Shown: positions 12,650-39,384 of the stretch, one piece after another
How positions within the stretch are numbered: the first letter of the stretch is position 1
How the letters are laid out: every line of letters starts with the position of its first letter
Assembly (NCBI GenBank): GCA_000004985.1
Contig: GG738882.1
From: Naegleria gruberi
Lineage: Eukaryota
Length of the DNA: 64,000 nt
Reading direction: 5' to 3' (one strand)
Translations under genes and position numbers: made by a program
Notes under the pieces: generated by a model
Seen by the model: only the letters and a program-made list of their open reading frames with translations
What the model was told of the DNA's origin: nothing
The model's database searches: none

Positions 12650-15600
12650 ATGAACGGTGCCTTTACCTACTCACCAGTGGATTTGTCTTCCATTGATAGA
12701 ATTCAGTTTGGCATTTTGAATCCACATGTGGTTGAGAAAATGTCTGCATGTGAAATAATTCATGCCGAAACTGAGGAGAAAGGTCTTCCAAAGGAAGGTG
12801 GTTTGATGGATCTTCGTATGGGAACTGTAAATAGTGCACTCTCCTGTATGACATGTGGCTGTGGAGTGAGTGAATGTCCAGGACACTTTGGACATGTCAA
12901 TATTCATCCAACATTTAATATATTATTCCTAAAGACAATTGTCAAGATATTGAAATGTACATGTGTCCATTGCAGTAGATTGCTCTTCAATAGAAACACT
13001 CCAGAATTCAAGAGAATCCAACAAATCGCCAACAAACGAAAAAGATTTAACGAATTGATGAAACTGAAACCAATGGACAAGTGCATGATTGATGATTATA
13101 CAGGTTGTGGTGGTATTCAACCTAAAATATCGAAGAATCAACTGTCCATCACTCAAATATTTCCAAATTCCAATGAAATCAAGCAAGAAATCAAAGCTGA
13201 AAGTGTCTTGCAGATTTTCAAGAGAATTTCAACACAAGATTTGGAATTACTTGGTTTTGATTCAATTAATTCGAATCCAGAATGGATGATATTAACTTGT
13301 CTTCCAGTGCCACCTCCACATGTTCGTCCTTCTGTGATGCATGGCTTGAATGATAAGGCAGAAGATGATTTGACTCATAAACTTGCTGACATTATCAAGT
13401 CAAATGCCACAATTCAGAAATTGAGCAAATCTGGATCTCCACAACATTATCTTGATGACATGATCAAGATTTTGCAATATCATTGTGCTACTTATATGAA
13501 TAATGAAATTTCTGGAGTGCCAATGTCAACTACCAAGAATGGAAGAATGTTAAAAAGTTTGAGACAAAGATTGAAGGGCAAGGAAGGACGTGTCAGAGGT
13601 AATTTGATGGGTAAACGTGTAGATTTCTCAGCAAGAACTGTGATTACTCCAGATCCAACCATTGAAATAGATCAGGTTGGTGTTCCAAGAACAATTGCAA
13701 GAAATATGACAGTTCCAGAAAAAGTGACACCTTTCAACTTTGAGAGAATGAATGAATTGGTCATGAATGGTCCAGAAACCTATCCAGGTGCTAAATACGT
13801 CCTTCGTGATGATGGTACTCGAATTGATTTGAAATTTCTTTCAGATAGATCAACAGATCAAGTTCAATTACAATACGGTTACACAATTGAACGTCATTTA
13901 CAAGATGGTGATGTCGTTCTCTTCAATAGACAACCTTCCCTTCACAAAATGTCCATGATGGGTCACAGAGTTAAGGTTATGCCTTACAGCACTTTCAGAT
14001 TAAATCTCTCCGTAGTAACTCCGTACAATGCCGATTTTGACGGAGATGAAATGAATTTGCATTTGCCTCAATCTTTGCAAACCAAAACTGAATTGTTAGA
14101 GCTCATGATGGTTCCAAAGAATATCATCACTCCTCAAAGTCATCGTCCTCTCATTGCACTAGTTCAGGATACATTACTGGCAGGTTCAAAATGTACAAGA
14201 AGAGATGTCTATATTGAGAAGGATGTCATGATGAATTGTCTAATGTATTTGCAAGATTTTAATGGTCAATTGCCAGTTCCAGCAATTTTAAAGCCAAAAC
14301 CATTGTGGACTGGAAAACAATTATTTTCACTTCTATTACCCTCAATTGACTATTATGGAATTTCTTCCACACACGATGATGAAGTTGGAGATTTGAAACA
14401 TTTGGATGATCATTTACCTGAATTCGATACTGGAATAATCATTTCTAATGGAGAACTCTTAACAGGTATTTTAGATAAGAAATCTTTAGGGTCATCCCAT
14501 GGCTCCTTAATTCACATCATTGTTAATGATAAGGGAACTCAGGAAGGAAAGAAATTCCTTGGACAATGTCAACATGTACTGAACTATTGGTTGCTTCAAC
14601 ACGGATTCAGTGTTGGTATTGGAGATACAATTGCAGATGGGGAAACTGTTAAGAAAATTGAAGAAATCATTAATAATGCTGAGAGAGAAGTTAAGAAAAT
14701 TGTCAAACAAGCTCATAATGGATTGGTGACAGCTGAACCTGGAAGAACAGTTGAGCAATCATTTGAAAGATCAATCAATTCAACATTAAATGCCGCCAGA
14801 GAGGATGCTGGTATGCATGTCAAAAAGTCACTCAAAGATTCGAATAGCATCAAATCAATGGTTACTTCAGGAAGTAAGGGTTCCTACCTTAACATTTCAC
14901 AAATCATTGCCTGTGTCGGTCAACAAAACGTTGAAGGTAAGAGAGTACCTTTCGGATTCAAGAACAGAACACTCCCTCACTTTAGTACAGATGATCATGG
15001 ACCTGAGAGTCGTGGTTTTGTTGCCAACAGTTACCTCAGAGGACTTACACCTCAGGAATTCTTCTTCCACACAATGGGAGGTCGTGAAGGGTTGATTGAT
15101 ACAGCTGTCAAGACAGCTGAGACTGGTTATATTCAGAGAAGATTGGTGAAGGCCATGGAAGATGTTAAGGTCAACTATGACGGAACTGTGAGAGATGCTT
15201 CTGGAAATATTATCCAGTTCTTGTATGGTGAAGATGGAATGGATCCAATCAAGTTGGAAAGCCAATCGTTTGAAATGTTAAGTTTGAGTGATGAGATATT
15301 TGAAGAAAAGTACAAATGGTCAACCAAGTTGGAAGACCACAACATTCCAGAAAGTGATTTGAATGAAATTTCCTTAGATTTTGCCAATTATTTGATGAAA
15401 CTGAATGATGAATATAAAAAATTGCAAGAATATCGTCACTTGGTAAGAGATGAAATATTACAATCAGTAGATTCAAAGATTGTCTTTCCAGTCAACTTGT
15501 CCAGATTGATCAAGAGAGTTCAAAGAGAATATGGTAGAAAGCACTCTACTTTCAACAACTCCTCAGATTTGAATCCACTCTACGTTATCAAGAAGGTCAA

Positions 15601-17602
15601 CTCTACATGTGAAGAGCTACTCATCATTAAGGGAAAAGATAAATTATCAGAAGAAGCTCAAAGAAATGCAATTTTGCTTTTTTCAATTTTCTTGAAATTT
15701 TCATTGGCATCCAAGGTTGTTATGAATGAATTGAATTTGACTCGAGAATCTCTTGAATATTTATTGGGAGAGGTCAAGTACACATTCTTGAATGGTTTGG
15801 TTCAACCTGGTGAAATGGTTGGTTGCATTGCAGCTCAGTCAATTGGTGAACCTGCTACTCAAATGACTTTGAATACCTTTCACAATGCTGGTGTTTCGTC
15901 TAAGAATGTTACTTTGGGTGTTCCTCGATTGAAAGAACTCCTCGATGTTTCAAGAAATATCAAAACTCCTGGGTTGACCATTTATCTCAAAAATGATAAT
16001 GATTGTGAAATTGCCAAAATGGTTAAGGAAGAATTGGAATATTCTAATTTAGGTTCCATTACTAGATCTACTCAGATTATCTACGATCCAGATATTTTCA
16101 ATTCAGTTATTGAAAGTGATCAATTTTTCATTAGAGAAATGCTGGAAGAAAAAACCATTGATCCTAATACGTTTAGTCCATGGTCATTGAGATTCGTATT
16201 AGATAGAGAAATGATGAGTGAACATTTGAACATGTCTCAGATTGCAAATATTATCAAACAAGAATTTCAAAATGACATTTCATGTTTCTATTCGGATGAT
16301 AATTCAGAGGAGTTAATCTTGATAATTCGTATTCGAAACAGTGAGAAATCCAAATCTGAAACTGAGGACGATGAAGAGGATTCTTCCATGATTGTTGAAT
16401 TCCTTAAAAGACTCGAGTCCAACATGCTTAGTCAACTCTCCCTTAAAGGTCACAACAATCTCAAGAAGGTTTTCTACAGAAAAGATGAAAATATTAAATT
16501 CTTTTCCAATAAGGGAGTTGAAAAGAAGACAAGATGGTCATTAGAAACAGAAGGTTGTGATTTACTTTCAGTCATGTCTCATCCACAAGTTGATTTTAGA
16601 AATACCTTGTCAAATGATGTTATTGAAGTTGAGAAAGTGTTGGGAATTGAAGCTTGTAGAAATTTATTAATGAAAGAATTGAGAAAGGTTATTGAGTTTG
16701 ATGGTTCCTATGTCAATTATAGACATTTGGCTATTTTATGTGATGTAATGACTCAAGGAGGTGTTATTACAGCTGTCACTCGTCACGGTTTGGCCAGAAG
16801 TGATAATGGACCACTTATGAGATGTTCATTCGAGCAAACAGTTGAAGTACTTGTGGAAGCAGCTCAATTTTCAGATGTTGATACCTTGAAAGGAGTTTCA
16901 GCCAATGTTATGGTTGGTAAATTGGCTCCGATTGGAACAGGAACTTTTGATCTAGTCCTAGATGAGCAATTATTGAAGGAAACCATTCAACCAACCTTTA
17001 TGAAGGCTTCTCATTTGACAAATATTTCAATAAGCTCTCCTCATGCTGTCATGACTCCTTATCACTCAACTTTCTCTACACCTTCCTGTTCAACACCATT
17101 CTCTTCATCACCATCTAGTCCTTGGACTCCACAATATTCTCCATACACTTCTGCATTTTCACCAATTACATCCATTGCAAGTTCTCCAACAAGTCATAAT
17201 GCAAGCTATTCACCAAGTGCAAATCATAATTATTCACCAAGCAGCCCAGCCAATTATAGCCCAAGCTCACCATTAGGATCTTATTCACCAAGTAGTCCAA
17301 ATTATAGAGACTATAGTCCAACATCTCCATTAATTAATGGTCCAATGTCACCAATCTATAGTCCTTCTTCACCTGCCTACACTCCAATGAATAGTCCTGG
17401 AAGATATAGCCCTAGCTCTCCTGCATTCTCACCTCTGAGTCCAAATGTTTATTCACCATCCAGTCCTGGAAGATACAGCCCTAGCTCTCCATCAAGTCCT
17501 AATATTTATTCACCAACTAGTCCAATCTATAGTCCAACATCTCCATACTCTCCGTCAAGTCCAAGTTTTAGCCCAACTTCACCAATAGATTGGAAACAAT
17601 AG
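12650..17602 (+). CDS. RPB1: DNA-directed RNA polymerase II largest subunit (RPB1) with non-canonical CTD
   Basis: 1650-aa intronless ORF. N-terminal zinc-binding clamp (CxxC..C..H). Universal catalytic motif NADFDGDEMNLH. Trigger loop, bridge helix and other conserved blocks present. C-terminus (about 17120..17602) is a Ser/Pro/Tyr-rich CTD made of degenerate YSPSSP / YSPTSP units with variable spacers rather than tandem YSPTSPS heptads. Confidence 0.95.
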   Translation: MNGAFTYSPVDLSSIDRIQFGILNPHVVEKMSACEIIHAETEEKGLPKEGGLMDLRMGTVNSALSCMTCGCGVSECPGHFGHVNIHPTFNILFLKTIVKILKCTCVHCSRLLFNRNTPEFKRIQQIANKRKRFNELMKLKPMDKCMIDDYTGCGGIQPKISKNQLSITQIFPNSNEIKQEIKAESVLQIFKRISTQDLELLGFDSINSNPEWMILTCLPVPPPHVRPSVMHGLNDKAEDDLTHKLADIIKSNATIQKLSKSGSPQHYLDDMIKILQYHCATYMNNEISGVPMSTTKNGRMLKSLRQRLKGKEGRVRGNLMGKRVDFSARTVITPDPTIEIDQVGVPRTIARNMTVPEKVTPFNFERMNELVMNGPETYPGAKYVLRDDGTRIDLKFLSDRSTDQVQLQYGYTIERHLQDGDVVLFNRQPSLHKMSMMGHRVKVMPYSTFRLNLSVVTPYNADFDGDEMNLHLPQSLQTKTELLELMMVPKNIITPQSHRPLIALVQDTLLAGSKCTRRDVYIEKDVMMNCLMYLQDFNGQLPVPAILKPKPLWTGKQLFSLLLPSIDYYGISSTHDDEVGDLKHLDDHLPEFDTGIIISNGELLTGILDKKSLGSSHGSLIHIIVNDKGTQEGKKFLGQCQHVLNYWLLQHGFSVGIGDTIADGETVKKIEEIINNAEREVKKIVKQAHNGLVTAEPGRTVEQSFERSINSTLNAAREDAGMHVKKSLKDSNSIKSMVTSGSKGSYLNISQIIACVGQQNVEGKRVPFGFKNRTLPHFSTDDHGPESRGFVANSYLRGLTPQEFFFHTMGGREGLIDTAVKTAETGYIQRRLVKAMEDVKVNYDGTVRDASGNIIQFLYGEDGMDPIKLESQSFEMLSLSDEIFEEKYKWSTKLEDHNIPESDLNEISLDFANYLMKLNDEYKKLQEYRHLVRDEILQSVDSKIVFPVNLSRLIKRVQREYGRKHSTFNNSSDLNPLYVIKKVNSTCEELLIIKGKDKLSEEAQRNAILLFSIFLKFSLASKVVMNELNLTRESLEYLLGEVKYTFLNGLVQPGEMVGCIAAQSIGEPATQMTLNTFHNAGVSSKNVTLGVPRLKELLDVSRNIKTPGLTIYLKNDNDCEIAKMVKEELEYSNLGSITRSTQIIYDPDIFNSVIESDQFFIREMLEEKTIDPNTFSPWSLRFVLDREMMSEHLNMSQIANIIKQEFQNDISCFYSDDNSEELILIIRIRNSEKSKSETEDDEEDSSMIVEFLKRLESNMLSQLSLKGHNNLKKVFYRKDENIKFFSNKGVEKKTRWSLETEGCDLLSVMSHPQVDFRNTLSNDVIEVEKVLGIEACRNLLMKELRKVIEFDGSYVNYRHLAILCDVMTQGGVITAVTRHGLARSDNGPLMRCSFEQTVEVLVEAAQFSDVDTLKGVSANVMVGKLAPIGTGTFDLVLDEQLLKETIQPTFMKASHLTNISISSPHAVMTPYHSTFSTPSCSTPFSSSPSSPWTPQYSPYTSAFSPITSIASSPTSHNASYSPSANHNYSPSSPANYSPSSPLGSYSPSSPNYRDYSPTSPLINGPMSPIYSPSSPAYTPMNSPGRYSPSSPAFSPLSPNVYSPSSPGRYSPSSPSSPNIYSPTSPIYSPTSPYSPSSPSFSPTSPIDWKQ

Positions 17603-18562: not shown

Positions 18563-19897
18563 ATGTTCAAATTAATTCCGTCATCTTCATCATTATCCAT
18601 GTTGATGAAATCCAATCAATTACGGAGTCGATTTGCCATCACTCATTCTATTAACAAGCACAAATTATTCGGAATAAACAATAGATACTTTTCAATTCTT
18701 TCATCAAAACAATTTCAACAACAACAAATAATTTCTCCCACTAACAATGAACAAGAAAAAGCACTTTTGGAACAAGAAGAATGTAATAGAGTATTTAAAT
18801 TATTGGATAATTATCCAAAGGAGACGGGTATCATTTTACATGAAATTAAAAAACAATTAACAAGATTGGAATTAGGAAAAGGAAAGAGAGAAGCAGGCCA
18901 ATTGATTGGTCTATTGAAGATTACACTTCCTTGGCTGAAGAATTTTCTCACCACTTCAATACAAATGAAGGATATGACATTCCTGCTGAAATATTTCAAT
19001 AAGGATGTGTTTATTGGAGATAGAGCCAATCCAGAAATTGTTTCGAGGCAGGTTTCACTCATGAGTCCTATTGAGCAGCCAGTTTTTAATGAAATGACAA
19101 TTAAGGAACCTGAAAGGAAGAGAATTATTTTCACTGATATTCAATCATGTGGACCATGGATTGATTTGCTGGTGAGTCATAACAAGACGATTTGCTTTGA
19201 TTGTGAGTGGAATTTTCATTCGAGGTCAACTGATGGACCTAAAGTGATTCAACTATCGAATGGATGGCTCACTCTAATCATTTACGTGGATTCAATACAA
19301 GTATCAAGTGGGAAAATTCATGATCTCTTCTGGGATAAGAAAATTACAAAGTTTGGATATGACATTAGTCCAGATGTGAAACGTTTATCAAATTGGTTCA
19401 ACTACAAGAAATTGAATCCCCTCCCAGAAATGAGCAACCTTTCGAGTATTGGAATTCTAGATGCTGATCCTCTCAAATTTGGTCTCACTAATTTACTAAA
19501 ATTTGGAGTTGTTAAGGGAAGAGAAATTGTACCACTTGTTGGAAAACAAAAAAACAATTACAATTTTCACATTTGGAATTTGGATCAATTAGATCCATAC
19601 ACTGGCAATGGAATGCACCACTTGGAATACGCAGCCAGTGACGTCATTGCAGGATTCTACTACTTCTCCAATGCTGACATTCACTCCAAAGATAATCAAG
19701 ATTTAAATTATTGGATCAATATTCTTAACCAGAATGGATTCCCAAATACTGAACCACGAGCTACCAACGAAGAATTGAAAAGAGTTGTCAATATTGCCAC
19801 CAATCAACGATTGAATTATACAGATACTTCTTTCGGTATTCCACTCTTTTTCTCTATTGATGATCATCAGAAGAATAAATCATTGAGGTATAGATGA
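18563..19897 (+). CDS. 3'-5' exonuclease domain protein (DEDDy, WRN-exo/Mut-7-like fold), possible N-terminal organellar presequence
   Basis: 444-aa ORF. ICFDCEWNF matches exo motif I (GFDxEW). KFGYDISPDVKRL matches motif II. HHLEYAASDVIAGFYYF matches motif III (YAAxDA). N-terminus MFKLIPSSSSLSMLMKSNQLRSRFAI is basic and hydroxylated, like a mitochondrial presequence. Confidence 0.6.
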   Translation: MFKLIPSSSSLSMLMKSNQLRSRFAITHSINKHKLFGINNRYFSILSSKQFQQQQIISPTNNEQEKALLEQEECNRVFKLLDNYPKETGIILHEIKKQLTRLELGKGKREAGQLIGLLKITLPWLKNFLTTSIQMKDMTFLLKYFNKDVFIGDRANPEIVSRQVSLMSPIEQPVFNEMTIKEPERKRIIFTDIQSCGPWIDLLVSHNKTICFDCEWNFHSRSTDGPKVIQLSNGWLTLIIYVDSIQVSSGKIHDLFWDKKITKFGYDISPDVKRLSNWFNYKKLNPLPEMSNLSSIGILDADPLKFGLTNLLKFGVVKGREIVPLVGKQKNNYNFHIWNLDQLDPYTGNGMHHLEYAASDVIAGFYYFSNADIHSKDNQDLNYWINILNQNGFPNTEPRATNEELKRVVNIATNQRLNYTDTSFGIPLFFSIDDHQKNKSLRYR

Positions 19898-20108: not shown

Positions 20109-23100
20109 ATGATGCAAGTTGTACAACAACAAGAATCGAATAATAATAACACAGCTTCTCAACATGAACCGATGATGGTAGTAGCATCTTCTTCATCTAC
20201 AACTTCACAACAATTAAACACCACAACAACAGCTCCAAAGAATGAAGGACAATCAACGGAAGGCATTCTGTTAAATTTTGATTCGAATAACAATAATAAC
20301 GAAACGATTGGTGAAGCATCAGAAGGCAATCATCAACATGAGAGAGTTATTTCTGATGTGGTTACTAACATCATTGACAAGATGATTAAAGATCATAACA
20401 ATGATGATAAGTCATCAGTTGAAGGTGGTGTTGTTGAAGAAAATTATAATCAACAAGAAGAATCTTCATCAACAATTGACGATGGACACAATGTGAAAAG
20501 TGTAACCTTTAATGATCAGGAAATATCTGATAAGAAAGCAGACGAAACAAAGGATGTGTCCTCTTCATATCCAACACCACCAAACATGACACCAAATGAT
20601 CATTCCATTCACTTGTCCACTCTTGACTGGGTCTCCAAACAAACCATGACAGGATCTTTTGGTGCAAGAGCTAAACACACAACAGTTTCGTTTACAAATT
20701 CTAAACAAGAACCTTGTATTTTAATTTTTGGAGGACAATCAAATATGGAAAGCTCAAAATCATCTTTATCTACAAATAGTATTGCTGAAAACTTGAATGG
20801 TATTGAAAATTCACTCTTCCTTCTCAAGAAATCTGCAGAACATGGTGATTGGCATTGTTTCTGTCCAGCTGTGAAGAATATTGCTCAATCTCCACCTAAA
20901 CTTCGTTATCATTCGGCTGTTTATTTTGAAGGAAGAATGTATGTATTTGGAGGAAAGAATAATTTGAGATATTTTGATCAATTATATGTAAGTTTTTCAG
21001 ATTGATTTAAATATTGAACTGTTTTTCATAAATTTCACAATTTTTCTAAATTTGATTGAAAAATTAGTCACTGAATTGTGAAACTTGGGAATGGAGTCAT
21101 ATTGTTTCACTCCAAAAATTCAGTACCAAACTCATCAAGGATTTCAAGAAACAATCATCAAGTAATTCACCATCAAATTCTCCACCCATTGGAAGAACTG
21201 TCAGAGAACAAATTAGCTTTGAGTCACTGATCAAGTTTCCATGTAAGAGAAGTAATCACACTGCAGTAGTTTTACCAAAATATAAGAAAATGCTTATTCA
21301 TGGAGGTAAATGTGGTGGTGAGGTTTTGGGAGATTTGTGGAGTTTTGATTTGGAAAGTTATGAATGGGATCATATTCAAATTGATATTAACAAGACATTG
21401 GTACCAAGTGAACGTCACTCTCACGCAGCAACTACACTCTACGAAAATCCAAATGTAATGCTATTCTATGGTGGTACTAATGGTAGTCATCAATTGAATG
21501 ATTTGTGGATGTTTGATATTTCATCTCGAGTTTTCACACCCATCACTCTGTGGAATAGTGTGTTAAATAATCCAGGACTCTCATTCAAAATGAGTGATAG
21601 TGGTGCTTCACATGCTGTTCAAGTTGCCACCAATTCTGTTTTTGGAAAGAAGCCATCAAGCTCTGACACCAAGAATATGGTAATTCCTCAACCAAGAACT
21701 GGACACACTTTCATTTCTCTTGGTAATGGCTACCTTATGGTGCATGGTGGCTATTCTAACAGAAGATTCTGTAAAGATTTTGTAATTATAGACTTGCAAA
21801 AGATGGAATACATTGATTGCTCTGATTTGCCAAGAAAAGAGTTGCCATGCTCTAGAAAATCTCACACCATGACAAGTATCTCTGATGAATATATTGCTCT
21901 GATTGGCGGTGTCTCTAGAAAACGAGGCAAGCTTGGTGATTTTGAATTGATTGATAAGAAGTCACTTCTCCACACATTGATGAATGATGAGCAGTGTGAT
22001 GTGGAGGATTTCAAGTCTGTTCTAAAAAAGAAATTTAATCTCGATTTGGATGATTCTACGAGATCTGCCTCCTCACACATTCAATCGTTGGATAATGTCA
22101 AGGATTTGTTAGATGCTGGATCCATCTTACTTTCTATTAGGGAGTATTCTTTGGCTAGAGAATGTTTCTCCAAAGCTTGCTCAATCAGTCCAAAGAATGT
22201 AGAAGCCAGAGAGAAGAGAGCTGTCTGTAGCTACATGATTGGTGAACATTTGGAATGTATTGAAGATTTTAGTAGTATTGAGAAATGCACCGATCAAACG
22301 TACGATCTCATCAAGGCCCATTGCTACCTTAGAATGGGACAATATCGAACTGCATCAACCATTCTTCAAACCATCAAGCAACAAGTCAACCAAGATGAAC
22401 AATCTGTTCTCCTCGATGTTATGAGACAAATTATGGAACATTACGAGTCTAGCACTGAAAACAAGAACAAGACATCTGGTGCCAGAGAAAGTAGAGCTTC
22501 TCAAGCTTACTATGCTTCACACATTGATGATTATATTTTCGAGCCAAATTTTGCACGTTATGTTGACTTGGAAGCAGAGAATAAGACAAATGACGAGTTG
22601 AATACTTCAATTGCCGAACCGTTCTCATTACTCTTTATAGGTGAAGATAAGAGTGGATTGACATCATATTTACAACAAATAAGAACCATGTTCAGACAGA
22701 GTGTCAGTTTACAGGAAGCCAAAACCTACAAGCAACATATTCAAGCATTCACTGCCTGGTTGTTCCATCAATTTATTAGTTTGAAACAATTGTTGCAAGC
22801 TTTAGATAAGGAAGAACCACTTATTGTACTTTCACCTGATTTGTCAAAGAATTGCGAAGCCCTTTTTGATATTTTGGATAATTCTGATAAGCATGCCTGC
22901 ACATTCCTCATTCCACAAGTGAGAGATTCCATTGTTGCCTTGTCCACCAATAAGGAATTTGTCAAGATCTTTACAAATTTATCCTCAATCTATGGAAAGC
23001 TTTCTAACAAGTATTATTTCACGTCACTTCCACACGACATTCACAAATTGTTCTTTACTGCCAACATTGCATAGTAAGTGCTTTTATTTTCTCATTGTTT

Positions 23101-24039
23101 TTAACATATATTATTATTGTAGCTTTTTGAATGAAGCTCCAAGAATTCTCCAAGAAAATTACTTACCAACAGAGTTTGATATTGTTGCCTATCCAGAAAA
23201 GACTCATTTCCATCCATTGAACATAATTGAAAATGAATTGGCCAGCAGGGAAATGACAGAAGAAGTTAGAAGATCCTCTATCAAGACCACATCTTCACAA
23301 AGCATTAGTGATGACATGTTCACCGAAGACCTTTCACAATACAGAAATAATTACGAAAGTTTGAATATGAGTACTGAAAAGGCGCCTCTCGAATTCATGT
23401 TCAGAAGAACACCGTATACCATCTTCTCAACAAGAACCAGTGTAGATGAGAAGAAGGTCACCTCTGCAATTAAAGAGCTCTCTATCGATGCCATTGTCAT
23501 TACTGTTTCCCTGGAAGATATTGATCAACAAAATAATTCAGTGGTCGGATCAAGTTCAATACCAACTCTAAACTTTTTAAAGAAACAAGTAATTGTCAAT
23601 GGAAAATCAAGTGCATCCATTGTAAACATTTTCAAAATTTTGGAAAAATTATTGATGGCAGAAGAGTTTGCAGACACTCAAATTTGCTTTATTTTCACAC
23701 ATCTCGATATATTTGTAAGTAGATTTAACATTCCTCAATCAAATATTAACAATTTCCATCTGAAACCCTTTTTAACAGAATCAAAAACTTTCTCAAGATC
23801 CATCCCTACTCACCAAGGTTTTCCCTAAATATTCCCCAAGCCCTAAAAAACCACCAATCAAATATTTGGAAGAAACATTTGAACTTTTCAATAGCAAACA
23901 TAAGAGAAGAAGAAGATTCCACTATTCGTTTGTTAATACATTTGATAAGGAAGATGTTAGAAAGTCCTTTAAGAATATTCACGAGGTGGTATACAGTGTT
24001 GAACTCAAGAGAAAATTGGACATGTACAAGATGTTGTAA
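20109..24039 (+). CDS. Kelch-repeat / TPR-like / G-alpha-like multidomain protein, 4 exons (20109..20987, 21068..23073, 23123..23714, 23779..24039), about 1280 aa
   Basis: Three introns inferred from in-frame joins. (1) GTAAGT at 20988 to TTAG at 21067, 80 nt; this restores a kelch blade LNCETWEWSHI that continues into ORF 21290. (2) GTAAGT beginning inside the apparent TAG stop at 23074, through TGTAG at 23122, 49 nt; splicing gives ...[27 protein letters not shown]. (3) GTAAGT at 23715 to TTAACAG at 23778, 64 nt; this joins FIFTHLDIF to NQKLSQDPSLLTKVFPKY. G-alpha homology blocks: FSLLFIGEDKSGLTSYLQQIRTMF ~ [43 protein letters not shown] ~ [33 protein letters not shown]...LTKVFPKY ~ IILFLNKKDLF...LTICYPEY; FHYSFVNTFDKEDV ~ THFTCATDTKNV. 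Kelch motifs: GARAKHTTVSF, HSAVYFEGRMYVFGG, LIHGGKCGG..LGDLWSFD, HAATTL...MLFYGG. Confidence 0.6.
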
Positions 24040-25583: not shown

Positions 25584-28292
25584 ATGAAGAATAATCATCA
25601 TCCTCATCAACATAATAACAACTCATGCAGACACTCAGACATTCCTCGTGTATTGATGGAACATTTCCAAAAGGAGGAATTTGAGTGGAAGCAACAGGTA
25701 AGGCAACTCAATGCCTCCCGAGAAGCTACAACGCTACACCACCTTCCAGACAAGTACTGCCAGATGTCTACTTTCACCCTCAATAATAACGGCTCGTCTA
25801 CTGAATCGGATCTTTTCGAATCACATCATGATGGTCTCAACAACAAGAAACTAAAAAACAATAATAACACTACTTCTGTATCTTCAACATTGGAAGAGCA
25901 GAGAAGAGGTCAACAACAACAATATTCGAGTAATCATTACAATTTCAACAATAACACCTACGCTAATACTTTTGCATCATCTTCCTTTAGCGGTGCAGAA
26001 AGCAATCATTTACTGATCGGTAATAATAACGAGAATACTTTTAACTATTCGAAACCTTTCTACACAACACATTCCATGATGAATGAAAGCGAGTATCTGC
26101 AGGCAACTTCCTCTGCAACTGACTATTCCTATCCAATGTTTCACACTGATGATGAATCCTCTCTCATGTTCGATGACGATAATCATCAAGCAACAACAGA
26201 CTCATCACCTTTTGAAAAACTCATACTCGACGATGATGAATTACTTGACTATGGTGATTGTGATACATATGGAGATCTTGATGAATTTAATAATAACGAT
26301 AAGACTCCAACAATGGAAGATTACATGGACGAATCATCCTTCTTTATTGAACAAACACCTCCTCCACAGAGACCAATTTACCTCTCCTTACAGCCAGTAT
26401 CACCACTCATGTCTGCAACAAGCTCTGAATTGACCAAGCCAAGAAAATCCTCTACAAGTGGTGGAATTAATTCACCTTCATCATCAAGAACGACAAATAA
26501 TTTGAACAACAATACACTTCTGGTGGCATCAGATGAATTGGATGTTTTTACTGGGGATTCACCATCTCTGAACACAGCAACCATTTCGAATGAGAATACT
26601 TGTGTTACAGGTAGTCCAATAGATACATCGAGAAAATCCAAGGTGAGACACGGATCCGTGCCTTCAGAGGAATTCAACAAGTTTCTTCAAATTTCATCTC
26701 CACAACAACAACAACTTTTTCAGGGGGCTTGTTCTCCTGCCAGAGCTTTATCACCAACCACTTCTTCTATTGCTTGTTCTCCTGGCAAGGTATCTTCTCA
26801 TCATTCTAGGAAAATGTCTAATCATGGAATTGGTCATATGAGGAGTAATTCTGGAATTAAAAAACAACCACGAGCCAACAGTTATACAGTTTCATCAATT
26901 CTAGGAGATCCACAACTCAAGCCATTATTTTTCGACTTTCTAAATGAACATCACAATTCGGAGCTAGTTCTCTTCTTACAGGAAGAAGAAGAATTCAGAT
27001 CAGAGTGCCAGAACTGCATTGCTTCAAATATTGGAAAGTTAATGATAGAGTATGAAATCAAAATGGAAAGGATTAAACAAATTTTCGAGACATATATTAA
27101 ACCAGGATCAAATAGCGAGCTTAATTTATCAAACGAAACCAGACTCAAAGTCGAGAATAGAGTCAGTGCTTTATTGATTCCACCAGTGATATCGAGACAT
27201 AAGGGTGTTGGCGATTTACATCTTTCGAGGTGGATTTCTCCAGATACTTTCGAGGCAGCCACAACAGAGGTCAAGATTAGCTTGAAAAATCACATTCTTC
27301 CACTTTTCCTTGAGAGTTCACGATTTGAAAATTATCTTGTGCAGAAACACATTCAAGATAATACAGTTTCTAATTTGAGAGGAAAGAAAATCCAAAGAAT
27401 GCTGGGTTATTACATACCAGAGAGTGCTAAGGATTATTCATTCTATGTTAATGGAACAACTGTTGGACTTGGCAAGCAACAGCAGCAACAACAACAAATG
27501 CAACAACCACAGCATTCACAACATCATCACTATTCTACTATCAATGACCCAACAGCCAAGAAGAGTAGACCTAAGAAATCGTTGGCTGCCCTCTTTGGAA
27601 ATAACCATGCGCCATCCCAAAATCATAATAATCCAACAATGGAGCAACCAGTACTTAATGACACATCTCCAAAGAGTCCATTCAAGAATGAACAACACAA
27701 GAATCAATCATTGAGCAAATTCAAAAATTGGATTTTAGGAAAGAGACATCCTGCAGAAAGCCCAAATCCATCTTCTTCATGGTCAACTCTCTCCAAAAAG
27801 TCTCAACTCACTGTTAATAATGCTTCTAACTCTTCCCCACAACTTGTTGGAACCTCTAGTCATATTAAGATTTCACCTCGAGAAATGGAATCAGATCCAA
27901 ATAAGAAGGTTGCCAATGCATTCTTACCTCTAACAATGTCATCTGGTCAATCCAACAACACAAATACTCCAGAAATCAACTCGCTCATCAATGATGGTAT
28001 TATTTTCATCAAGGTTCATACAAAAAAGAGAGGAAACTGCAAAATTCTTGAAATTAATATCGACAAAATGTCCCTGTTATCAGACCAAGACAAGAAACTT
28101 GCCAATCAACTCAAAAATGTCTTACTAACCCACATTGATGCAGATATTAATCCTTTCGACAAGTATCCTCACCTGAGAGAATTTCTTCAAACAAAAATCT
28201 CTGTTCAATCCCAAAAGAATTGGGAAGAAATCAATGAAGATTGCATCATCAAGGTCAAAAGTCCAGCAACTAGTAACTTTTTCAAACTATAA
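25584..28292 (+). CDS. RGS (regulator of G-protein signalling) domain protein with long N/Q/S-rich low-complexity regions
   Basis: 902-aa ORF. Central RGS domain (about 26920..27350): LKPLFFDFLNEHHNSELVLFLQEEEEFRSE ... IKPGSNSELNLSNETRLKV ... FEAA ... PLFLESSRFENYL. This matches the RGS pattern F..FL..E.S.ENL.FW...E.F ... FL.S..Y..L. Flanked by poly-Q (QQQQQQQMQQPQ) and Asn-rich tracts. Confidence 0.65.
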   Translation: MKNNHHPHQHNNNSCRHSDIPRVLMEHFQKEEFEWKQQVRQLNASREATTLHHLPDKYCQMSTFTLNNNGSSTESDLFESHHDGLNNKKLKNNNNTTSVSSTLEEQRRGQQQQYSSNHYNFNNNTYANTFASSSFSGAESNHLLIGNNNENTFNYSKPFYTTHSMMNESEYLQATSSATDYSYPMFHTDDESSLMFDDDNHQATTDSSPFEKLILDDDELLDYGDCDTYGDLDEFNNNDKTPTMEDYMDESSFFIEQTPPPQRPIYLSLQPVSPLMSATSSELTKPRKSSTSGGINSPSSSRTTNNLNNNTLLVASDELDVFTGDSPSLNTATISNENTCVTGSPIDTSRKSKVRHGSVPSEEFNKFLQISSPQQQQLFQGACSPARALSPTTSSIACSPGKVSSHHSRKMSNHGIGHMRSNSGIKKQPRANSYTVSSILGDPQLKPLFFDFLNEHHNSELVLFLQEEEEFRSECQNCIASNIGKLMIEYEIKMERIKQIFETYIKPGSNSELNLSNETRLKVENRVSALLIPPVISRHKGVGDLHLSRWISPDTFEAATTEVKISLKNHILPLFLESSRFENYLVQKHIQDNTVSNLRGKKIQRMLGYYIPESAKDYSFYVNGTTVGLGKQQQQQQQMQQPQHSQHHHYSTINDPTAKKSRPKKSLAALFGNNHAPSQNHNNPTMEQPVLNDTSPKSPFKNEQHKNQSLSKFKNWILGKRHPAESPNPSSSWSTLSKKSQLTVNNASNSSPQLVGTSSHIKISPREMESDPNKKVANAFLPLTMSSGQSNNTNTPEINSLINDGIIFIKVHTKKRGNCKILEINIDKMSLLSDQDKKLANQLKNVLLTHIDADINPFDKYPHLREFLQTKISVQSQKNWEEINEDCIIKVKSPATSNFFKL

Positions 28293-28597: not shown

Positions 28598-31294
28598 ATG
28601 AGTTCAAATAGAGGAGGTGGAGGTAATAGTAGAGGAGGAGAGAGAGGAGGTGGCACTTATAGAGGTGGCAGTAGAGGAGGTGGAGGTGCTGGTAGGGGAA
28701 GTGGTAGTAGCAGAGCAGTGGTGGATCATCATTCTGGAGGAAGTAGCAGTGGTCAATTCCATTCAAGTAGACCTTCGTCATCATCATCATCAGGTGGAGC
28801 TAGTAGTAGTAGCAGTAGCAGTCGTGGTTCTTATGGTTCAAAGACACCTTCCCATGGTGGTCGTGGAACTGGTTTCAACCAACAGCCTTCTCAACTATCA
28901 TTTGGTAATAGAAAAGCCATTGAGGAAGTTTCCATCAGAACTATCAAGATTGAAGATCTCTCAAATGTTGGCTCTTCGAGTGCACAAACAGAAAGACCAG
29001 CAGAAAGCACTACCTCACGTGCTGTAGTCAACTATTTCCCTGTAAAAGCTCCTGAGGGACCTTTCTATCTCTATGATGTAAAGATTAATCCTGATGTTGA
29101 CAGCAAGTATTTTGCTGGGAACTTAGTCAAACAAGTCATGCCAATCAATGAGATTTATCTTTTTGATGGAACAACAGTTCTCTACACTAAAAATCCACTC
29201 ACCAAGAATAAGGAAACTTTTGAGAAAACTTTAGTTAAGGATAAGAAAGTCTACAAGGTTACAATTAATTTTGCTAGAAGTATAACCTCTAAAGTAATAG
29301 ATGCAACCACTCTCCAATTTATGAATATCATTTTGAGAAAGGCTCAAAACAGCTTGCATTTACAAAGAATTGGCAGACATTACTATAATACTAACGAAAA
29401 AGTCGTTGCCAATATTGAAAATCATCATATTAAGATATTACCTGGTGCATTATCAACAACATTCTTAGGCAGCAAGGGGCTGATGTTGAATGTGGACATG
29501 ATCTACAAAACTTTAAGAACAGACACTGTGTATTCTATGCTTATGGATCTAATGGACAAGTTTGATAGTCATGACAGAATTGCAAATGAATTCAGAAATA
29601 CCATTGTATTATGCACCTACAATCAACGAACTGTACATATTGATGATGTAGATTTTGAAAAGACCCCAAAATCTACATTTGTAAAGAAAACTGGTGAAAA
29701 GATTACATTTGCCAAATATTATCAAGAACAATACAAAATTAAGGTTAAGGATATGAATCAACCATTGTTAAAGCATGTAGATAGAAAAGACCCTCAAAAA
29801 ATTGAATATTATCTACCTGAATTGTGTTTGCTTACTGGATTGACTGATGATATGAGAAAGAATCACCAATTAATGAAGGCTCTCAAGGATGCCACAGGTC
29901 TCACTCCAAATCAAAGAATTAGACAAATTGTACACTCACAACAAGAATGTCTTCAAAATGAGGAATATACCGACCAATTAGGTCTTTGGGGATTGGAAAT
30001 TAATGATAAGTTATTGGAGGTGGAGACCACTGTTCTTCCATGCGAGAAAGTGGAATTTGGTGATAATTTGCAAAAAACTGCCACTGGAGCATCTTGGGAG
30101 GTAAAGAGAGAAAAACTCTTCAAACCAGTTAAGATCGACAATTGGTGTGTTTTCCATCCAAATGGAACAAAACAAGACACTACAAACTTTATCAAATCAT
30201 TGAATGATGTTTCCAAGCCAATAGGAATGATTTTAGGAACTCCTAAACTAGTTGAACTTAGTGGAAACAATGAGGAAACATATGCATCTGAAATTGAAGA
30301 ATATATGAGCGGTAATAAGCCTTCTTTTGCTCTGGTGGTTTTATTTAATGATCAAAAGCAAAGATATTCGAGAGTCAAGGAGGTATTGTGCAATCAAGTT
30401 GGTATAATTAGCCAATGTGTTAAATTGAGTACCATTACTAACGAAAAGGGATTAGCATCTAAGGCAACCAAGGTAATAGTGCAAATTTGTTCTAAAATGG
30501 GAGGTGCACCATGGACAGTTCCTCTTGCTTTTCCAAACAAGGAACCAACTATGATTATTGGAATGGATGTATACCACTCAGGAGAAATTTACAAAAGAAA
30601 AAAGGCTAGTGTAGCTGGATTTGTAGCAAGTATTGATGCAAAAATTTCTACATACTTTACAAAGTGTATAATTCAAGAAGCTGGAAAGGAAATTGTAGAT
30701 GAGTTGGAAGAATGTATGACTGCTGCCCTCAACAAATTCAAGGAAAAGAATAAGATATTACCAAAACATGTTATTTTCTATAGAGATGGTGTTGGAGAAG
30801 GCCAGAAAGAGGCTGTATTGGAGAGGGAAGTAATGGCTTGTAAGAAAGCTATTATGAATATTGCTCCAAGTTGCAAACTCAATTATATTGTAGTTTCCAA
30901 GAGAATTAATACTAGAATATTTGCTCAAACAGATCCAACCAAGCCAACTGATTTCACCAATCCACAACCTGGAACAGTTTTGGATTATGGAGTTACCAGT
31001 CAAAGAGAAGATCCTTTGGCCATTGAATTTTATTTGGTTGCTCAAAAGGTTGATAATGGTCAAGGAACAGCTACTCCAACCAAATACCACTCCATCTTTA
31101 ACGAAAGCTCTCTGTCTAAACAATATTTGGAGACACTTTCATTCAGACTTTGCCACAATTATTATAATTGGTTTGGAACTATCAGAGTGCCATCTCCATG
31201 TATGTATGCACACAAGATTGCTTCCTTAGTTGGACAATACACCAAATCAGCAGACTTTAAAGATGTGCTTAACGACAAACTCTTCTACTTGTAA
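28598..31294 (+). CDS. Argonaute/Piwi family protein (Piwi-clade-like), RGG-repeat N-terminus, PAZ-MID-PIWI, intact DDH
   Basis: 898-aa intronless ORF. N-terminus GGGGNSRGGERGGGTYRGGSRGGGGAGRG is RG/RGG-rich. PIWI domain catalytic residues in canonical contexts: IGMDVYH (first Asp), VIFYRDGVGEGQ (second Asp), PCMYAHKIA (His). Ends ...NDKLFYL, like Piwi proteins (LFYL) rather than AGO-clade proteins (MYFA). Confidence 0.9.
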   Translation: MSSNRGGGGNSRGGERGGGTYRGGSRGGGGAGRGSGSSRAVVDHHSGGSSSGQFHSSRPSSSSSSGGASSSSSSSRGSYGSKTPSHGGRGTGFNQQPSQLSFGNRKAIEEVSIRTIKIEDLSNVGSSSAQTERPAESTTSRAVVNYFPVKAPEGPFYLYDVKINPDVDSKYFAGNLVKQVMPINEIYLFDGTTVLYTKNPLTKNKETFEKTLVKDKKVYKVTINFARSITSKVIDATTLQFMNIILRKAQNSLHLQRIGRHYYNTNEKVVANIENHHIKILPGALSTTFLGSKGLMLNVDMIYKTLRTDTVYSMLMDLMDKFDSHDRIANEFRNTIVLCTYNQRTVHIDDVDFEKTPKSTFVKKTGEKITFAKYYQEQYKIKVKDMNQPLLKHVDRKDPQKIEYYLPELCLLTGLTDDMRKNHQLMKALKDATGLTPNQRIRQIVHSQQECLQNEEYTDQLGLWGLEINDKLLEVETTVLPCEKVEFGDNLQKTATGASWEVKREKLFKPVKIDNWCVFHPNGTKQDTTNFIKSLNDVSKPIGMILGTPKLVELSGNNEETYASEIEEYMSGNKPSFALVVLFNDQKQRYSRVKEVLCNQVGIISQCVKLSTITNEKGLASKATKVIVQICSKMGGAPWTVPLAFPNKEPTMIIGMDVYHSGEIYKRKKASVAGFVASIDAKISTYFTKCIIQEAGKEIVDELEECMTAALNKFKEKNKILPKHVIFYRDGVGEGQKEAVLEREVMACKKAIMNIAPSCKLNYIVVSKRINTRIFAQTDPTKPTDFTNPQPGTVLDYGVTSQREDPLAIEFYLVAQKVDNGQGTATPTKYHSIFNESSLSKQYLETLSFRLCHNYYNWFGTIRVPSPCMYAHKIASLVGQYTKSADFKDVLNDKLFYL

Positions 31295-39312: not shown

Positions 39313-39384
39313 CTCCCGTGCCGGGAATTGAACCCGGATCTCCTGGGTGAGAGCCAGGTATCTTAGCCATTGGACCACACGGGA
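39313..39384 (-). tRNA. tRNA-Glu: tRNA-Glu (anticodon CUC)
   Basis: The reverse complement gives TCCCGTG T GGTCCAATGGCTAAGATA CCTGG CTCTCAC CCAGG AGATCCGGGTTCAATTCCCGGCACGGGA G. The 7-bp acceptor stem TCCCGTG pairs with CACGGGA. Anticodon stem CCTGG/CCAGG with loop CTCTCAC (anticodon CTC). T-arm CCGGG TTCAATT CCCGG. 72 nt. Confidence 0.8.

What the first reader, a model, noticed from the sequence alone, without database searches (positions are those of the whole stretch)
28598..31294. Piwi-clade-like Argonaute with RGG N-terminus and intact slicer triad
The N-terminal RG/RGG repeats (GGGGNSRGGERGGGTYRGGSRGGGGAGRG) are the type of motif that is symmetrically dimethylated and bound by Tudor proteins in Piwi pathways. 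The catalytic DDH residues sit in canonical contexts (GMDVYH, YRDGVGEGQ, MYAHKIA), so the protein is likely slicer-competent. The C-terminus ends LFYL, like Piwi proteins, rather than MYFA, like AGO-clade proteins. Together with the 3'-5' exonuclease gene 10 kb upstream (a Mut-7/WRN-exo-like fold), the genome evidently retains small-RNA machinery.
Basis: partly seen in the sequence, partly recalled or inferred. Interest (0 to 1): 0.55.

Follow-up and report, generated by a model that had tools for sequence, protein, structure and literature searches.

The report
Naegleria gruberi PIWI-clade Argonaute gene
This is the already-annotated Argonaute gene of the amoeboflagellate Naegleria gruberi; it belongs to the PIWI branch of the family and keeps all its RNA-cutting residues, which is correct but ordinary, because PIWI-type Argonautes are well known in single-celled eukaryotes.

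Summary
Window 28598-31294 (+) is one uninterrupted 898-codon ORF, 100% identical to the NCBI/UniRef protein "argonaute [Naegleria gruberi]". Its architecture is a low-complexity N-terminus followed by ArgoN, PAZ and Piwi domains.

It is a PIWI-clade protein:
- Solved animal PIWI structures match at E 1e-98 to 1e-127, AGO-clade structures only at about 1e-45.
- An NJ tree of the PIWI domain splits AGO from PIWI in 100/100 bootstraps, with the query beside N. lovaniensis, Willaertia magna and environmental protist sequences.

The full catalytic tetrad is present (D657, E698, D730, H872), as is a PIWI-type 5'-phosphate pocket. The C-terminus LFYL is the commonest ending among 123 PIWI-clade representatives.

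The RG/RGG cluster is real and conserved in heterolobosean and amoebozoan relatives. It is not Piwi-specific, because plant, Toxoplasma and trypanosomatid AGO-clade proteins have it too.

The "exonuclease 10 kb upstream" is a sub-threshold DEDDy-like ORF that is absent from the N. lovaniensis locus, so it adds nothing.

Most likely function: a guide-RNA-directed slicer in a Dicer-type silencing pathway. Already known; low interest.

The parts
28598..31294 (+). Complete single-exon coding sequence (898 aa plus stop) of the Naegleria gruberi PIWI-clade Argonaute
   Evidence: ORF. It is 100% identical over 100% of its length to NCBI 'argonaute [Naegleria gruberi]' (P0001).
28598..28984 (+). Low-complexity N-terminal extension (aa 1-129), rich in S, G and R and lying outside the aligned Argonaute fold
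   Evidence: Composition of aa 1-140 is S 38, G 31, R 13. The PDB alignments start at aa 100-143.
28610..28867 (+). RG/RGG cluster (aa 5-90): 8 RG, of which 5 are RGG (aa 5-28) and 2 sit in GRG (aa 32-34, 88-90). This is a candidate arginine-methylation, RNA-binding or Tudor-docking region.
   Evidence: Positions and enrichment P about 0.001. The cluster is conserved in N. lovaniensis, Willaertia, Stygamoeba and environmental P0013.
29027..29335 (+). Argonaute N domain (aa 144-246)
   Evidence: Pfam PF16486 ArgoN, E 6.8e-12.
29558..29896 (+). PAZ domain (aa 321-433), the pocket for the guide 3' end
   Evidence: Pfam PF02170, E 2.1e-28. It matches the isolated PIWIL1/PIWIL2 PAZ structures at E 1e-18 to 1e-25.
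30365..30496 (+). MID-domain 5'-phosphate binding residues Y590, K594, Q606, Q629 and K633
   Evidence: Y590, K594, Q606 and K633 are invariant in alignment A1. Q629 aligns with Q of the PIWI-clade rows and with K of the AGO-clade rows.
30332..31243 (+). PIWI (RNase H-like) domain, aa 579-882
   Evidence: Pfam PF02171, E 7e-78, covering profile positions 3-301 of 302.
30566..30568 (+). Catalytic D657 (in GMDVYH)
   Evidence: Invariant column in A1. It aligns with GIDVYH of EfPiwi.
30689..30691 (+). Catalytic glutamate finger E698 (in GKEIVDEL)
   Evidence: It aligns with the E of SQELIHEL in EfPiwi and of REEMIQDL in plant AGO.
30785..30787 (+). Catalytic D730 (in YRDGVGEGQ)
   Evidence: Invariant column in A1.
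31211..31213 (+). Catalytic H872 (in MYAHKIA)
   Evidence: It aligns with the H of NYAHKLA in EfPiwi and of YYAHLAA in plant AGOs. The Drosophila ficusphila Piwi row has K at this position.
31280..31291 (+). C-terminal LFYL (aa 895-898)
   Evidence: LFYL is the most frequent C-terminal tetrapeptide among 123 PIWI-clade representatives (38/123), and 120/123 end in L. The AGO-clade sample ends MFYC, MFFC or MFYV.

Best explanation
The region is the Naegleria gruberi (Heterolobosea, Discoba) gene for a PIWI-clade Argonaute, inherited vertically within Heterolobosea.

Mechanism, with status marked:
- Shown from sequence: the protein has the full N-PAZ-MID-PIWI architecture.
- Shown from sequence: it has a PIWI-type 5'-phosphate pocket (Y590, K594, Q606, Q629, K633, and a C-terminal Leu).
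- Shown from sequence: it has a complete RNase-H-like DEDH tetrad (D657, E698, D730, H872).
- Inferred: it therefore most likely binds a 5'-monophosphorylated small guide RNA and cleaves complementary target RNA.
- Inferred from what is known of other non-animal PIWI-clade proteins (my knowledge of ciliate Twi/Ptiwi and Dictyostelium Agn proteins): its guides are probably Dicer- and/or RdRP-derived siRNA-like RNAs aimed at repeats, transposons or viruses, rather than animal-style Dicer-independent piRNAs.
- Inferred: the disordered N-terminal RG/RGG cluster is most likely an arginine-methylation and/or RNA- or ribosome-contact module. It could recruit a Tudor-domain partner such as Tudor-SN, as described for RGG-bearing Argonautes of other protists.
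For: Identity: 100% match to annotated 'argonaute [Naegleria gruberi]', with a 52%-identical N. lovaniensis homologue and a 45%-identical Willaertia magna homologue.

Architecture: ArgoN, PAZ and Piwi are all above the Pfam cut-offs.

Clade:
- phmmer against PDB gives PIWI proteins (EfPiwi, MIWI, MILI, Siwi, Drosophila Piwi) 334-428 bits over aa ~120-898, against at most 162 bits for human AGO1-4 and 123 bits for AtAGO10.
- The precomputed Pfam set of P0001 includes PF23278, as in animal PIWIs P0003-P0006. It lacks PF08699 and PF16488, which the AGO-clade hits carry.
- In the NJ tree on 245 PIWI-domain columns the AGO|PIWI bipartition is recovered in 100/100 bootstraps. The query sits in a 99%-supported clade with N. 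lovaniensis, Willaertia and environmental sequences.
- Identity over these columns is 36-47% to non-heterolobosean PIWI-clade sequences (animal, amoebozoan, glaucophyte and three of the environmental ones; 53-60% to the heterolobosean relatives and environmental P0011) and 32-34% to AGOs.

Catalytic and guide-binding residues.

C-terminus.

Native gene rather than contaminant: its G+C of about 0.35 matches its neighbours, and homologues exist in two other heterolobosean genera.

Pathway context: N. gruberi Dicer homologues DCR1-3 are in published phylogenies (PMC4791657), and RNAi machinery is reported in all Naegleria species studied (PMC9928731).

RGG precedent: TgAgo binds PRMT1 and Tudor-SN, and trypanosomatid and plant Argonautes also carry RGG tracts (PMC9935688). 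A Naegleria PRMT1 exists and its structure is solved (PMC7990177).
Against: - There are no small-RNA, expression or biochemical data for this protein. Slicing, guide class and arginine methylation are all inferred.
- Human AGO3 shows that an intact DEDH tetrad does not guarantee robust slicing (established knowledge).
- My tree is distance-based (NJ, BLOSUM62) on 29 sequences. It lacks ciliate, Dictyostelium, trypanosomatid and Asgard references, so the position inside the PIWI clade is not resolved.
- I could not survey the N. gruberi genome for Dicer, RdRP, HEN1, Tudor or PRMT5 myself.
Confidence: 0.85

Rival explanations
1. It works in an animal-like piRNA pathway. Guides would be Dicer-independent and 3'-methylated. 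The RG motifs would be symmetrically dimethylated by PRMT5 and read by Tudor-domain scaffolds, possibly with ping-pong amplification by slicing.
For: - PIWI-clade placement and an intact slicer tetrad.
- RG-rich N-termini are widespread in the PIWI clade: 75 of 115 representatives with an N-extension of at least 40 aa have 3 or more RG, including Willaertia and Stygamoeba.
- The Naegleria pangenome paper loosely speaks of piRNAs (PMC9928731).
Against: - The motifs here are mostly RGG (5 of 8), a motif that PMC9935688 describes as a PRMT1 substrate. Animal PIWIs in the same alignment carry G/A-R-G/A motifs instead (P0003 GRARGRARG).
- RGG tracts occur equally in AGO-clade proteins.
- Characterised non-animal PIWI-clade proteins use Dicer-dependent small RNAs (established knowledge).
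- No Tudor, PRMT5, Zucchini or HEN1 gene lies in the window. None could be searched genome-wide.
Confidence: 0.12
2. The protein binds guides but does not act mainly by slicing. It could direct transcriptional or heterochromatin silencing or translational repression, as Drosophila Piwi and several AGOs do, with the RGG tail mediating polysome or chromatin association.
For: - Slicer residues can be retained in proteins whose main function does not need slicing (established knowledge).
- RGG-bearing TgAgo associates with polysome fractions and has only weak slicer activity of its own (PMC9935688).
Against: - All four catalytic residues, their flanking motifs and the C-terminus are conserved between the N. 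gruberi sequence and N. lovaniensis despite only 52% overall identity. This suggests selection on catalysis.
- TgAgo's weak slicing goes with a degenerate E/S/E triad, unlike the tetrad here.
Confidence: 0.15
3. It is an AGO-clade (siRNA/miRNA-type) Argonaute that only superficially resembles Piwi.
For: - A weak, sub-threshold ArgoMid Pfam hit (E 0.0068).
- Public annotation calls it simply 'argonaute'.
Against: - The AGO|PIWI split has 100/100 bootstrap support with the query on the PIWI side.
- PIWI structures score 334-428 bits and AGO structures at most 162 bits.
- Position 629 is Q as in PIWIs, not K as in AGOs.
- The C-terminus is LFYL.
- ArgoL1 and ArgoL2 domains are absent.
Confidence: 0.01
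4. The gene is an assembly contaminant or a recent horizontal transfer from an animal.
For: The best named non-heterolobosean hits include animal Piwi and Ago3 proteins.
Against: - Identity to animal PIWIs is only 29-36%.
- Its nearest relatives are N. lovaniensis and Willaertia magna, in a 99%-supported clade separate from the animals.
- It is embedded among typical Naegleria genes with matching G+C.
- Protist PIWI-clade relatives (Stygamoeba, Cyanoptyche) score as well as the animal ones.
Confidence: 0.02

Closest known systems
Animal PIWI proteins with solved structures (Ephydatia EfPiwi 7KX7/9IIY, mouse MILI and MIWI, Bombyx Siwi 5GUH, Drosophila Piwi 6KR6)
   Same: - The alignment is full-length from the N domain to the last residue, at E 1e-98 to 1e-127.
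- The same DEDH tetrad is present.
- The 5'-phosphate pocket has the same Y-K-Q-Q-K pattern.
- The C-terminus is the same L-[FY]-[FY]-L.
- There is an RG-containing disordered N-terminus.
   Different: - Identity is only about 30-36%, and the host is a unicellular organism with no germline.
- The RG motifs are mainly RGG rather than the G/A-R-G/A motifs of animal PIWIs.
- The guide class, 3' methylation and Tudor/PRMT5 coupling are all unknown. By analogy with other protists the guides are expected to be Dicer-dependent.
Heterolobosean and other protist PIWI-clade Argonautes (N. lovaniensis C9374_004421, Willaertia magna ABK040_007948, Stygamoeba regulata and Cyanoptyche gloeocystis EukProt proteins). 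By knowledge, also ciliate Twi/Ptiwi and Dictyostelium Agn proteins.
   Same: - These are the nearest relatives, at 52% and 45% identity for the two heterolobosean proteins.
- They fall in the same clade or on the same side of the tree.
- N. lovaniensis, Willaertia and Stygamoeba have the same RGG-rich N-terminus.
   Different: - No gene-order conservation with the N. lovaniensis locus.
- None of these relatives is functionally characterised.
- Ciliate and Dictyostelium proteins were not in my tree.
RGG-bearing AGO-clade Argonautes of protists and plants (Toxoplasma TgAgo, Trypanosoma brucei AGO1, Leishmania AGO1, Arabidopsis AGO1/AGO2, rice-type MEL1)
   Same: - All have an N-terminal RGG-rich disordered tract ahead of the Argonaute fold.
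- In TgAgo this region undergoes arginine methylation, and TgAgo binds PRMT1 and Tudor-SN.
   Different: - They belong to the other clade (AGO or lineage-specific), as the tree shows.
- Their 5'-pocket residue (K, not Q) and C-terminus differ.
- TgAgo has a degenerate catalytic triad.

Membership tests
Eukaryotic Argonaute superfamily | N - PAZ - MID - PIWI domain architecture | tested here: met
   Pfam ArgoN (E 6.8e-12), PAZ (2.1e-28) and Piwi (7e-78) are present. The MID region aligns end to end with solved PIWI structures, although the AGO-derived ArgoMid model is only sub-threshold (E 0.0068).
PIWI clade of eukaryotic Argonautes | Phylogenetic placement on the PIWI side of the AGO/PIWI split | tested here: met
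   In the NJ tree of 245 PIWI-domain columns and 29 sequences, the bipartition is recovered in 100/100 bootstraps. PDB bit scores are 334-428 for PIWI against at most 162 for AGO.
PIWI clade of eukaryotic Argonautes | PIWI-type 5'-phosphate pocket (Q where AGOs have the first Lys of the K-x3-K motif) and a C-terminal aliphatic L-[FY]-[FY]-L | tested here: met
   Q629 and K633 in VQICSK align with (Q)LNC(K) of PIWIs and (K)INV(K) of AGOs. LFYL is the modal PIWI C-terminus, 38/123. The structural meaning (metal-mediated 5'-phosphate binding) is recalled from the Siwi structure literature and was not tested.
Slicer-active Argonautes | Complete DEDH catalytic tetrad in the RNase-H-like PIWI domain | tested here: met
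   D657, E698, D730 and H872 align to the catalytic positions. Cleavage activity itself cannot be tested with these tools.
Animal-type piRNA pathway | Guides are Dicer-independent, 24-31 nt, 2'-O-methylated piRNAs | not testable with these tools
   No small-RNA data are available. N. gruberi Dicer homologues are known from the literature (PMC4791657).
Animal-type piRNA pathway | N-terminal (G/A)R(G/A) motifs symmetrically dimethylated by PRMT5 and bound by extended Tudor domains | tested here: inconclusive
   RG motifs are present and conserved. However, 5 of 8 are RGG, and RGG tracts also occur in AGO-clade proteins. The methylation state and the presence of Tudor and PRMT5 genes could not be examined. 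Only Naegleria PRMT1 is documented.
AGO clade of eukaryotic Argonautes | ArgoL1 (PF08699), ArgoL2 (PF16488) and ArgoMid (PF16487) signature, and placement with plant, fungal and animal AGOs | tested here: not met
   There is no ArgoL1 or ArgoL2 hit, and ArgoMid is sub-threshold, whereas the AGO-clade hits carry these domains. The tree excludes the query from the AGO clade in 100/100 bootstraps.
DEDDy 3'-5' exonucleases of the WRN-exo/Mut-7/RNase D type (PF01612), for the upstream ORF 18563-19897 | Significant match to the family profile with Exo I (DxE), Exo II and Exo III (Yx3D) motifs | tested here: inconclusive
   The PF01612 hit is E 0.0048, 17.1 bits, below the 23.6-bit cut-off, though it spans profile positions 19-163 of 173. 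The motifs FDCEW, GYDISPDVKRL and YAASD are visible by eye. There is no PDB sequence hit, and the single-sequence AlphaFold model is unusable at pLDDT 32.7.

The most novel reading that the evidence does not exclude
The RG/RGG-rich N-terminal tail may be an ancestral, pre-metazoan feature of PIWI-clade Argonautes. It occurs in Heterolobosea, Amoebozoa and animals alike. If so, arginine-methylation-dependent recruitment of Tudor-domain partners to PIWI proteins would predate animals and germlines, and Naegleria would be a free-living unicellular system in which to test this.
Probability: 0.2. Interest if true: 0.5.

Novelty: already known. Interest (0 to 1): 0.2.

Why it matters
It matters little beyond correct annotation. 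The gene is already in public databases as the N. gruberi argonaute. RNAi genes were reported with the genome and in the Naegleria pangenome study. [quoted passage not shown]

The refinement offered here is modest:
- The protein is specifically PIWI-clade.
- It is catalytically intact.
- It shares an RGG tail with other protist PIWI-clade proteins.

This may be useful to anyone trying to establish RNAi as a tool in Naegleria (a stated need in PMC13315211), or asking what PIWI-clade proteins did before animal germlines existed.

Tried and rejected
- **Trimmed homology search.** A second homologous-protein run with the low-complexity N-terminus removed returned only the two Naegleria proteins. 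The word index was the limit, so I used the exhaustive representative search instead.
- **Exact-sequence lookup.** The look-up of encoding contigs for the N. gruberi protein found no record. The window's origin therefore rests on the 100% protein match.
- **Structure of the upstream exonuclease-like ORF.** Single-sequence AlphaFold2 gave mean pLDDT 32.7 and pTM 0.23. This is unusable, so no fold search was run. phmmer of that ORF against PDB found nothing relevant.
- **Synteny between the Argonaute and the exonuclease ORF.** Rejected. In the N. lovaniensis locus, 10 kb either side of the homologue holds Sec15, F-box/LRR, EFL1 and R3H genes. tblastn with nine window ORFs, including the Argonaute itself, matched only the Argonaute and a generic LRR.
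- **Other small-RNA genes in the window.** Pfam scans of every other ORF of at least 200 aa except three that lie inside or overlap the giant EGF/REJ ORFs found no Dicer, RdRP, Tudor, PRMT, HEN1 or helicase genes.
- **Literature.**
  - The N. gruberi genome paper is not held.
  - Supplements of the pangenome paper and of the Asgard Argonaute paper contain no Naegleria, Piwi, Tudor or PRMT5 entries as held text.
- **TbRIF4/QIP-type RNAi exonuclease.** I considered this as an identity for the upstream ORF and rejected it. Those enzymes are DEDDh, whereas this ORF has a DEDDy-type YAASD motif.
- **Full-length Argonaute model.** Not run, because the full-length sequence match to solved PIWI structures is already decisive.
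Full report
**Observation.** The ORF listing gives an ATG-initiated ORF at exactly 28598..31294 (+), 898 aa. The quoted N-terminal string, the three catalytic-context motifs and the C-terminal LFYL are all present at aa 6-34, 655, 728, 869 and 895. An in-frame stop lies four codons upstream of the ATG, so the ORF is a complete single-exon coding sequence. The G+C content (0.33-0.36) matches the neighbouring sequence.

**Identity.** The protein is 100% identical over its whole length to the NCBI/UniRef entry "argonaute [Naegleria gruberi]" (P0001). The window therefore comes from the heterolobosean amoeboflagellate N. gruberi, and the gene is already annotated. The nearest relatives are:
- a hypothetical protein of N. 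lovaniensis (52% identity);
- a hypothetical protein of Willaertia magna, another heterolobosean (45% identity);
- environmental protist sequences;
- Stygamoeba (Amoebozoa) and Cyanoptyche (glaucophyte) proteins;
- animal Ago3/PIWIL proteins at 33-37% identity.

The exhaustive search found 1140 cluster representatives at E of 1e-30 or better, so this is a very large, well-populated family.

**Architecture and residues.** Pfam finds ArgoN (aa 144-246), PAZ (aa 321-433) and Piwi (aa 579-882) above threshold. Alignment to solved PIWI structures and to a mixed PIWI/AGO panel shows three things.
- The 5'-phosphate-binding residues Y590, K594, Q606 and K633 are invariant in the panel. Position 629 is Q, as in the PIWI-clade rows, where the AGO-clade rows have K.
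- The C-terminus LFYL is the single most common ending among 123 PIWI-clade representatives that align to the end (38/123; 120/123 end in Leu). A plant and fungal AGO sample ends MFYC, MFFC or MFYV.

**Clade.** Three independent lines put the protein in the PIWI clade.
1. phmmer against all PDB sequences gives 334-428 bits (E 1e-98 to 1e-127) for EfPiwi, MIWI, MILI, Siwi and Drosophila Piwi over essentially the full fold. Human AGO1-4 reach only 141-162 bits and AtAGO10 123 bits. The Asgard HrAgo1 is intermediate at 183 bits.
2. The precomputed Pfam annotation of the protein carries PF23278, like the animal PIWIs. It lacks the ArgoL1 and ArgoL2 domains that every full-length AGO-clade hit carries.
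3. I built a neighbour-joining tree (BLOSUM62 distances) from 245 well-aligned PIWI-domain columns.
   - The PIWI-side sequences were 17: heterolobosean, amoebozoan, glaucophyte, environmental and animal, including EfPiwi transcribed.
   - The AGO-clade sequences were 12: plant and fungal, plus human AGO3 and AtAGO10 transcribed.
   - The AGO|PIWI bipartition appears in 100 of 100 bootstrap replicates with the query on the PIWI side.
   - The query groups with N. lovaniensis (86%), then with Willaertia and an environmental sequence (78%), inside a 99%-supported protist clade distinct from the animal sequences.

The same tree, plus the heterolobosean homologues, rules out contamination or recent transfer from an animal.

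**The RG/RGG tail.** All eight RG dipeptides of the protein lie in aa 5-90: five RGG, and two inside GRG. None occurs in the 769-residue core, which has 25 Arg and 36 Gly. Shuffling the N-terminal 129 residues reaches eight RG with P about 0.001.

The feature is conserved where sequence otherwise is not. N. lovaniensis, Willaertia, Stygamoeba and an environmental relative all begin with RGG-rich tracts. Among PIWI-clade representatives with an N-extension of at least 40 residues, 75 of 115 carry three or more RG.

The feature is not Piwi-specific, however. The plant AGO-clade proteins P0007, P0008 and P0257 have equally RG/RGG-rich N-termini. The literature describes RGG tracts in the Argonautes of Toxoplasma, Trypanosoma, Leishmania and Arabidopsis (PMC9935688). 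According to that paper, TgAgo's RGG region has arginines that undergo methylation, and TgAgo binds PRMT1 (which uses RGG motifs as substrates) and a Tudor staphylococcal nuclease. The title of Musiyenko et al. 2012, as cited, states that PRMT1 methylates TgAgo and is important for Tudor nuclease recruitment.

Animal PIWIs in my alignment show the classical GRARGRARG type instead (P0003). A Naegleria PRMT1 exists and has a solved structure (PMC7990177). I could not determine whether Naegleria has PRMT5 or Tudor proteins. The tail is therefore a plausible methylation, RNA-contact or Tudor-docking module, but it does not by itself argue for a Piwi-type pathway.

**The upstream "exonuclease".** ORF 18563-19897 (444 aa) hits PF01612 only below threshold (E 0.0048; 17.1 bits against 23.6), although the three Exo motifs are readable. 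It has no PDB sequence match, and a single-sequence AlphaFold model failed (pLDDT 32.7).

Between this ORF and the Argonaute lie Kelch, Kelch/TPR/G-alpha and RGS genes and an ORF with no Pfam hit. In N. lovaniensis the Argonaute homologue sits among entirely different genes and no exonuclease homologue is nearby.

No other small-RNA-pathway gene is in the window. That Naegleria retains RNA-silencing machinery is nonetheless already documented: N. gruberi Dicer homologues (PMC4791657), RNAi elements in all Naegleria genomes studied (PMC9928731), and Dicer/Argonaute/MOV10/C3PO candidates in N. fowleri (PMC13315211).

**Mechanism.**
- Shown from sequence: a complete Argonaute fold with an intact guide 5'-end pocket, a PAZ domain and an intact RNase-H-like active site.
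- Inferred: the protein binds a 5'-phosphorylated small RNA and slices complementary RNA.
- Inferred from established knowledge of other non-animal PIWI-clade proteins (ciliate Twi/Ptiwi, Dictyostelium Agn): the guides are probably Dicer- and/or RdRP-dependent siRNA-like RNAs directed at repeats or viruses, rather than animal-type piRNAs.

Rivals:
- an animal-like PRMT5/Tudor/piRNA system (about 0.12);
- a mainly non-slicing silencing role (about 0.15);
- AGO-clade membership (about 0.01);
- contamination or horizontal transfer (about 0.02).

**Comparison and novelty.** The protein works like, and by every sequence test is a member of, the PIWI clade of eukaryotic Argonautes. Membership of the animal piRNA pathway is untested. 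PIWI-clade proteins in unicellular eukaryotes are textbook knowledge, and both clades are inferred for the last eukaryotic common ancestor (PMC11217426). Diplonemids, which with Heterolobosea belong to Discoba by my knowledge of eukaryote taxonomy, are reported to have five Piwi proteins (PMC10161547). The gene itself is already annotated.

I therefore rate it already known, interest 0.2. The only mildly novel angle is that RG/RGG tails recur across heterolobosean, amoebozoan and animal PIWI-clade proteins. This leaves open, at perhaps 20% probability, that methyl-arginine-dependent partner recruitment is an ancestral property of the clade.

**Limits.**
- The tree is distance-based and lacks ciliate, dictyostelid, trypanosomatid and Asgard references.
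- I could not search the N. gruberi genome for partner genes or paralogues.
- No expression or small-RNA data were available.
- The Naegleria genome paper could not be read, and the paper cap stopped two further look-ups.

Noticed in passing
window 18563-19897 (+): A 444-aa ORF with a sub-threshold PF01612 (DEDDy 3'-5' exonuclease) match. The motifs FDCEW, GYDISPDVKRL and YAASD are readable by eye. Its N-terminus (MFKLIPSSSSLSMLMKSNQLRSRFAITHSINKHKLF...) looks like an organellar targeting peptide, judged by eye only. It is not syntenic with the Argonaute in N. lovaniensis.
   Followed up: partly
window 12650-17602 (+): RNA polymerase II largest subunit (all seven Rpb1 Pfam domains). Its C-terminal domain is short and degenerate, made of YSPSSP/YSPTSP-like repeats: 13 SP[ST]SP matches but only 7 near-canonical heptads.
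   Followed up: partly
window 39619-60040 (-): Two very long overlapping-end ORFs (2458 aa and 4823 aa) packed with teneurin-type EGF repeats plus a REJ domain. They are probably one giant surface-protein gene. The junction region at 46-48 kb has unusually low G+C (0.24).
   Followed up: partly
window 20109-23828 (+): Three consecutive ORFs carry Kelch repeats, then Kelch + TPR + the N-terminal part of a G-alpha domain, then the rest of the G-alpha domain. This suggests a single intron-containing gene for an unusual Kelch-TPR-G-alpha fusion.
   Followed up: no
window 25584-28292 (+): The gene immediately upstream of the Argonaute encodes a 902-aa RGS-domain protein with long Asn/Gln/Ser low-complexity tracts.
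   Followed up: no
window 1570-5124 (+): Ubiquitin-activating enzyme E1 with the full domain set: ThiF, FCCH, 4HB, SCCH and UFD.
   Followed up: no
window 39313-39384 (-): The only tRNA in the window is tRNA-Glu (CTC), lying just downstream of the giant EGF/REJ gene.
   Followed up: no
L001 (N. lovaniensis PYSW02000021.1) 1-22700: The N. lovaniensis Argonaute homologue is flanked by Sec15, F-box/LRR, EFL1-type GTPase and R3H genes. None of these has a counterpart around the N. gruberi gene, so local gene order is not conserved between the two Naegleria species, or the two genes are paralogues.
   Followed up: partly
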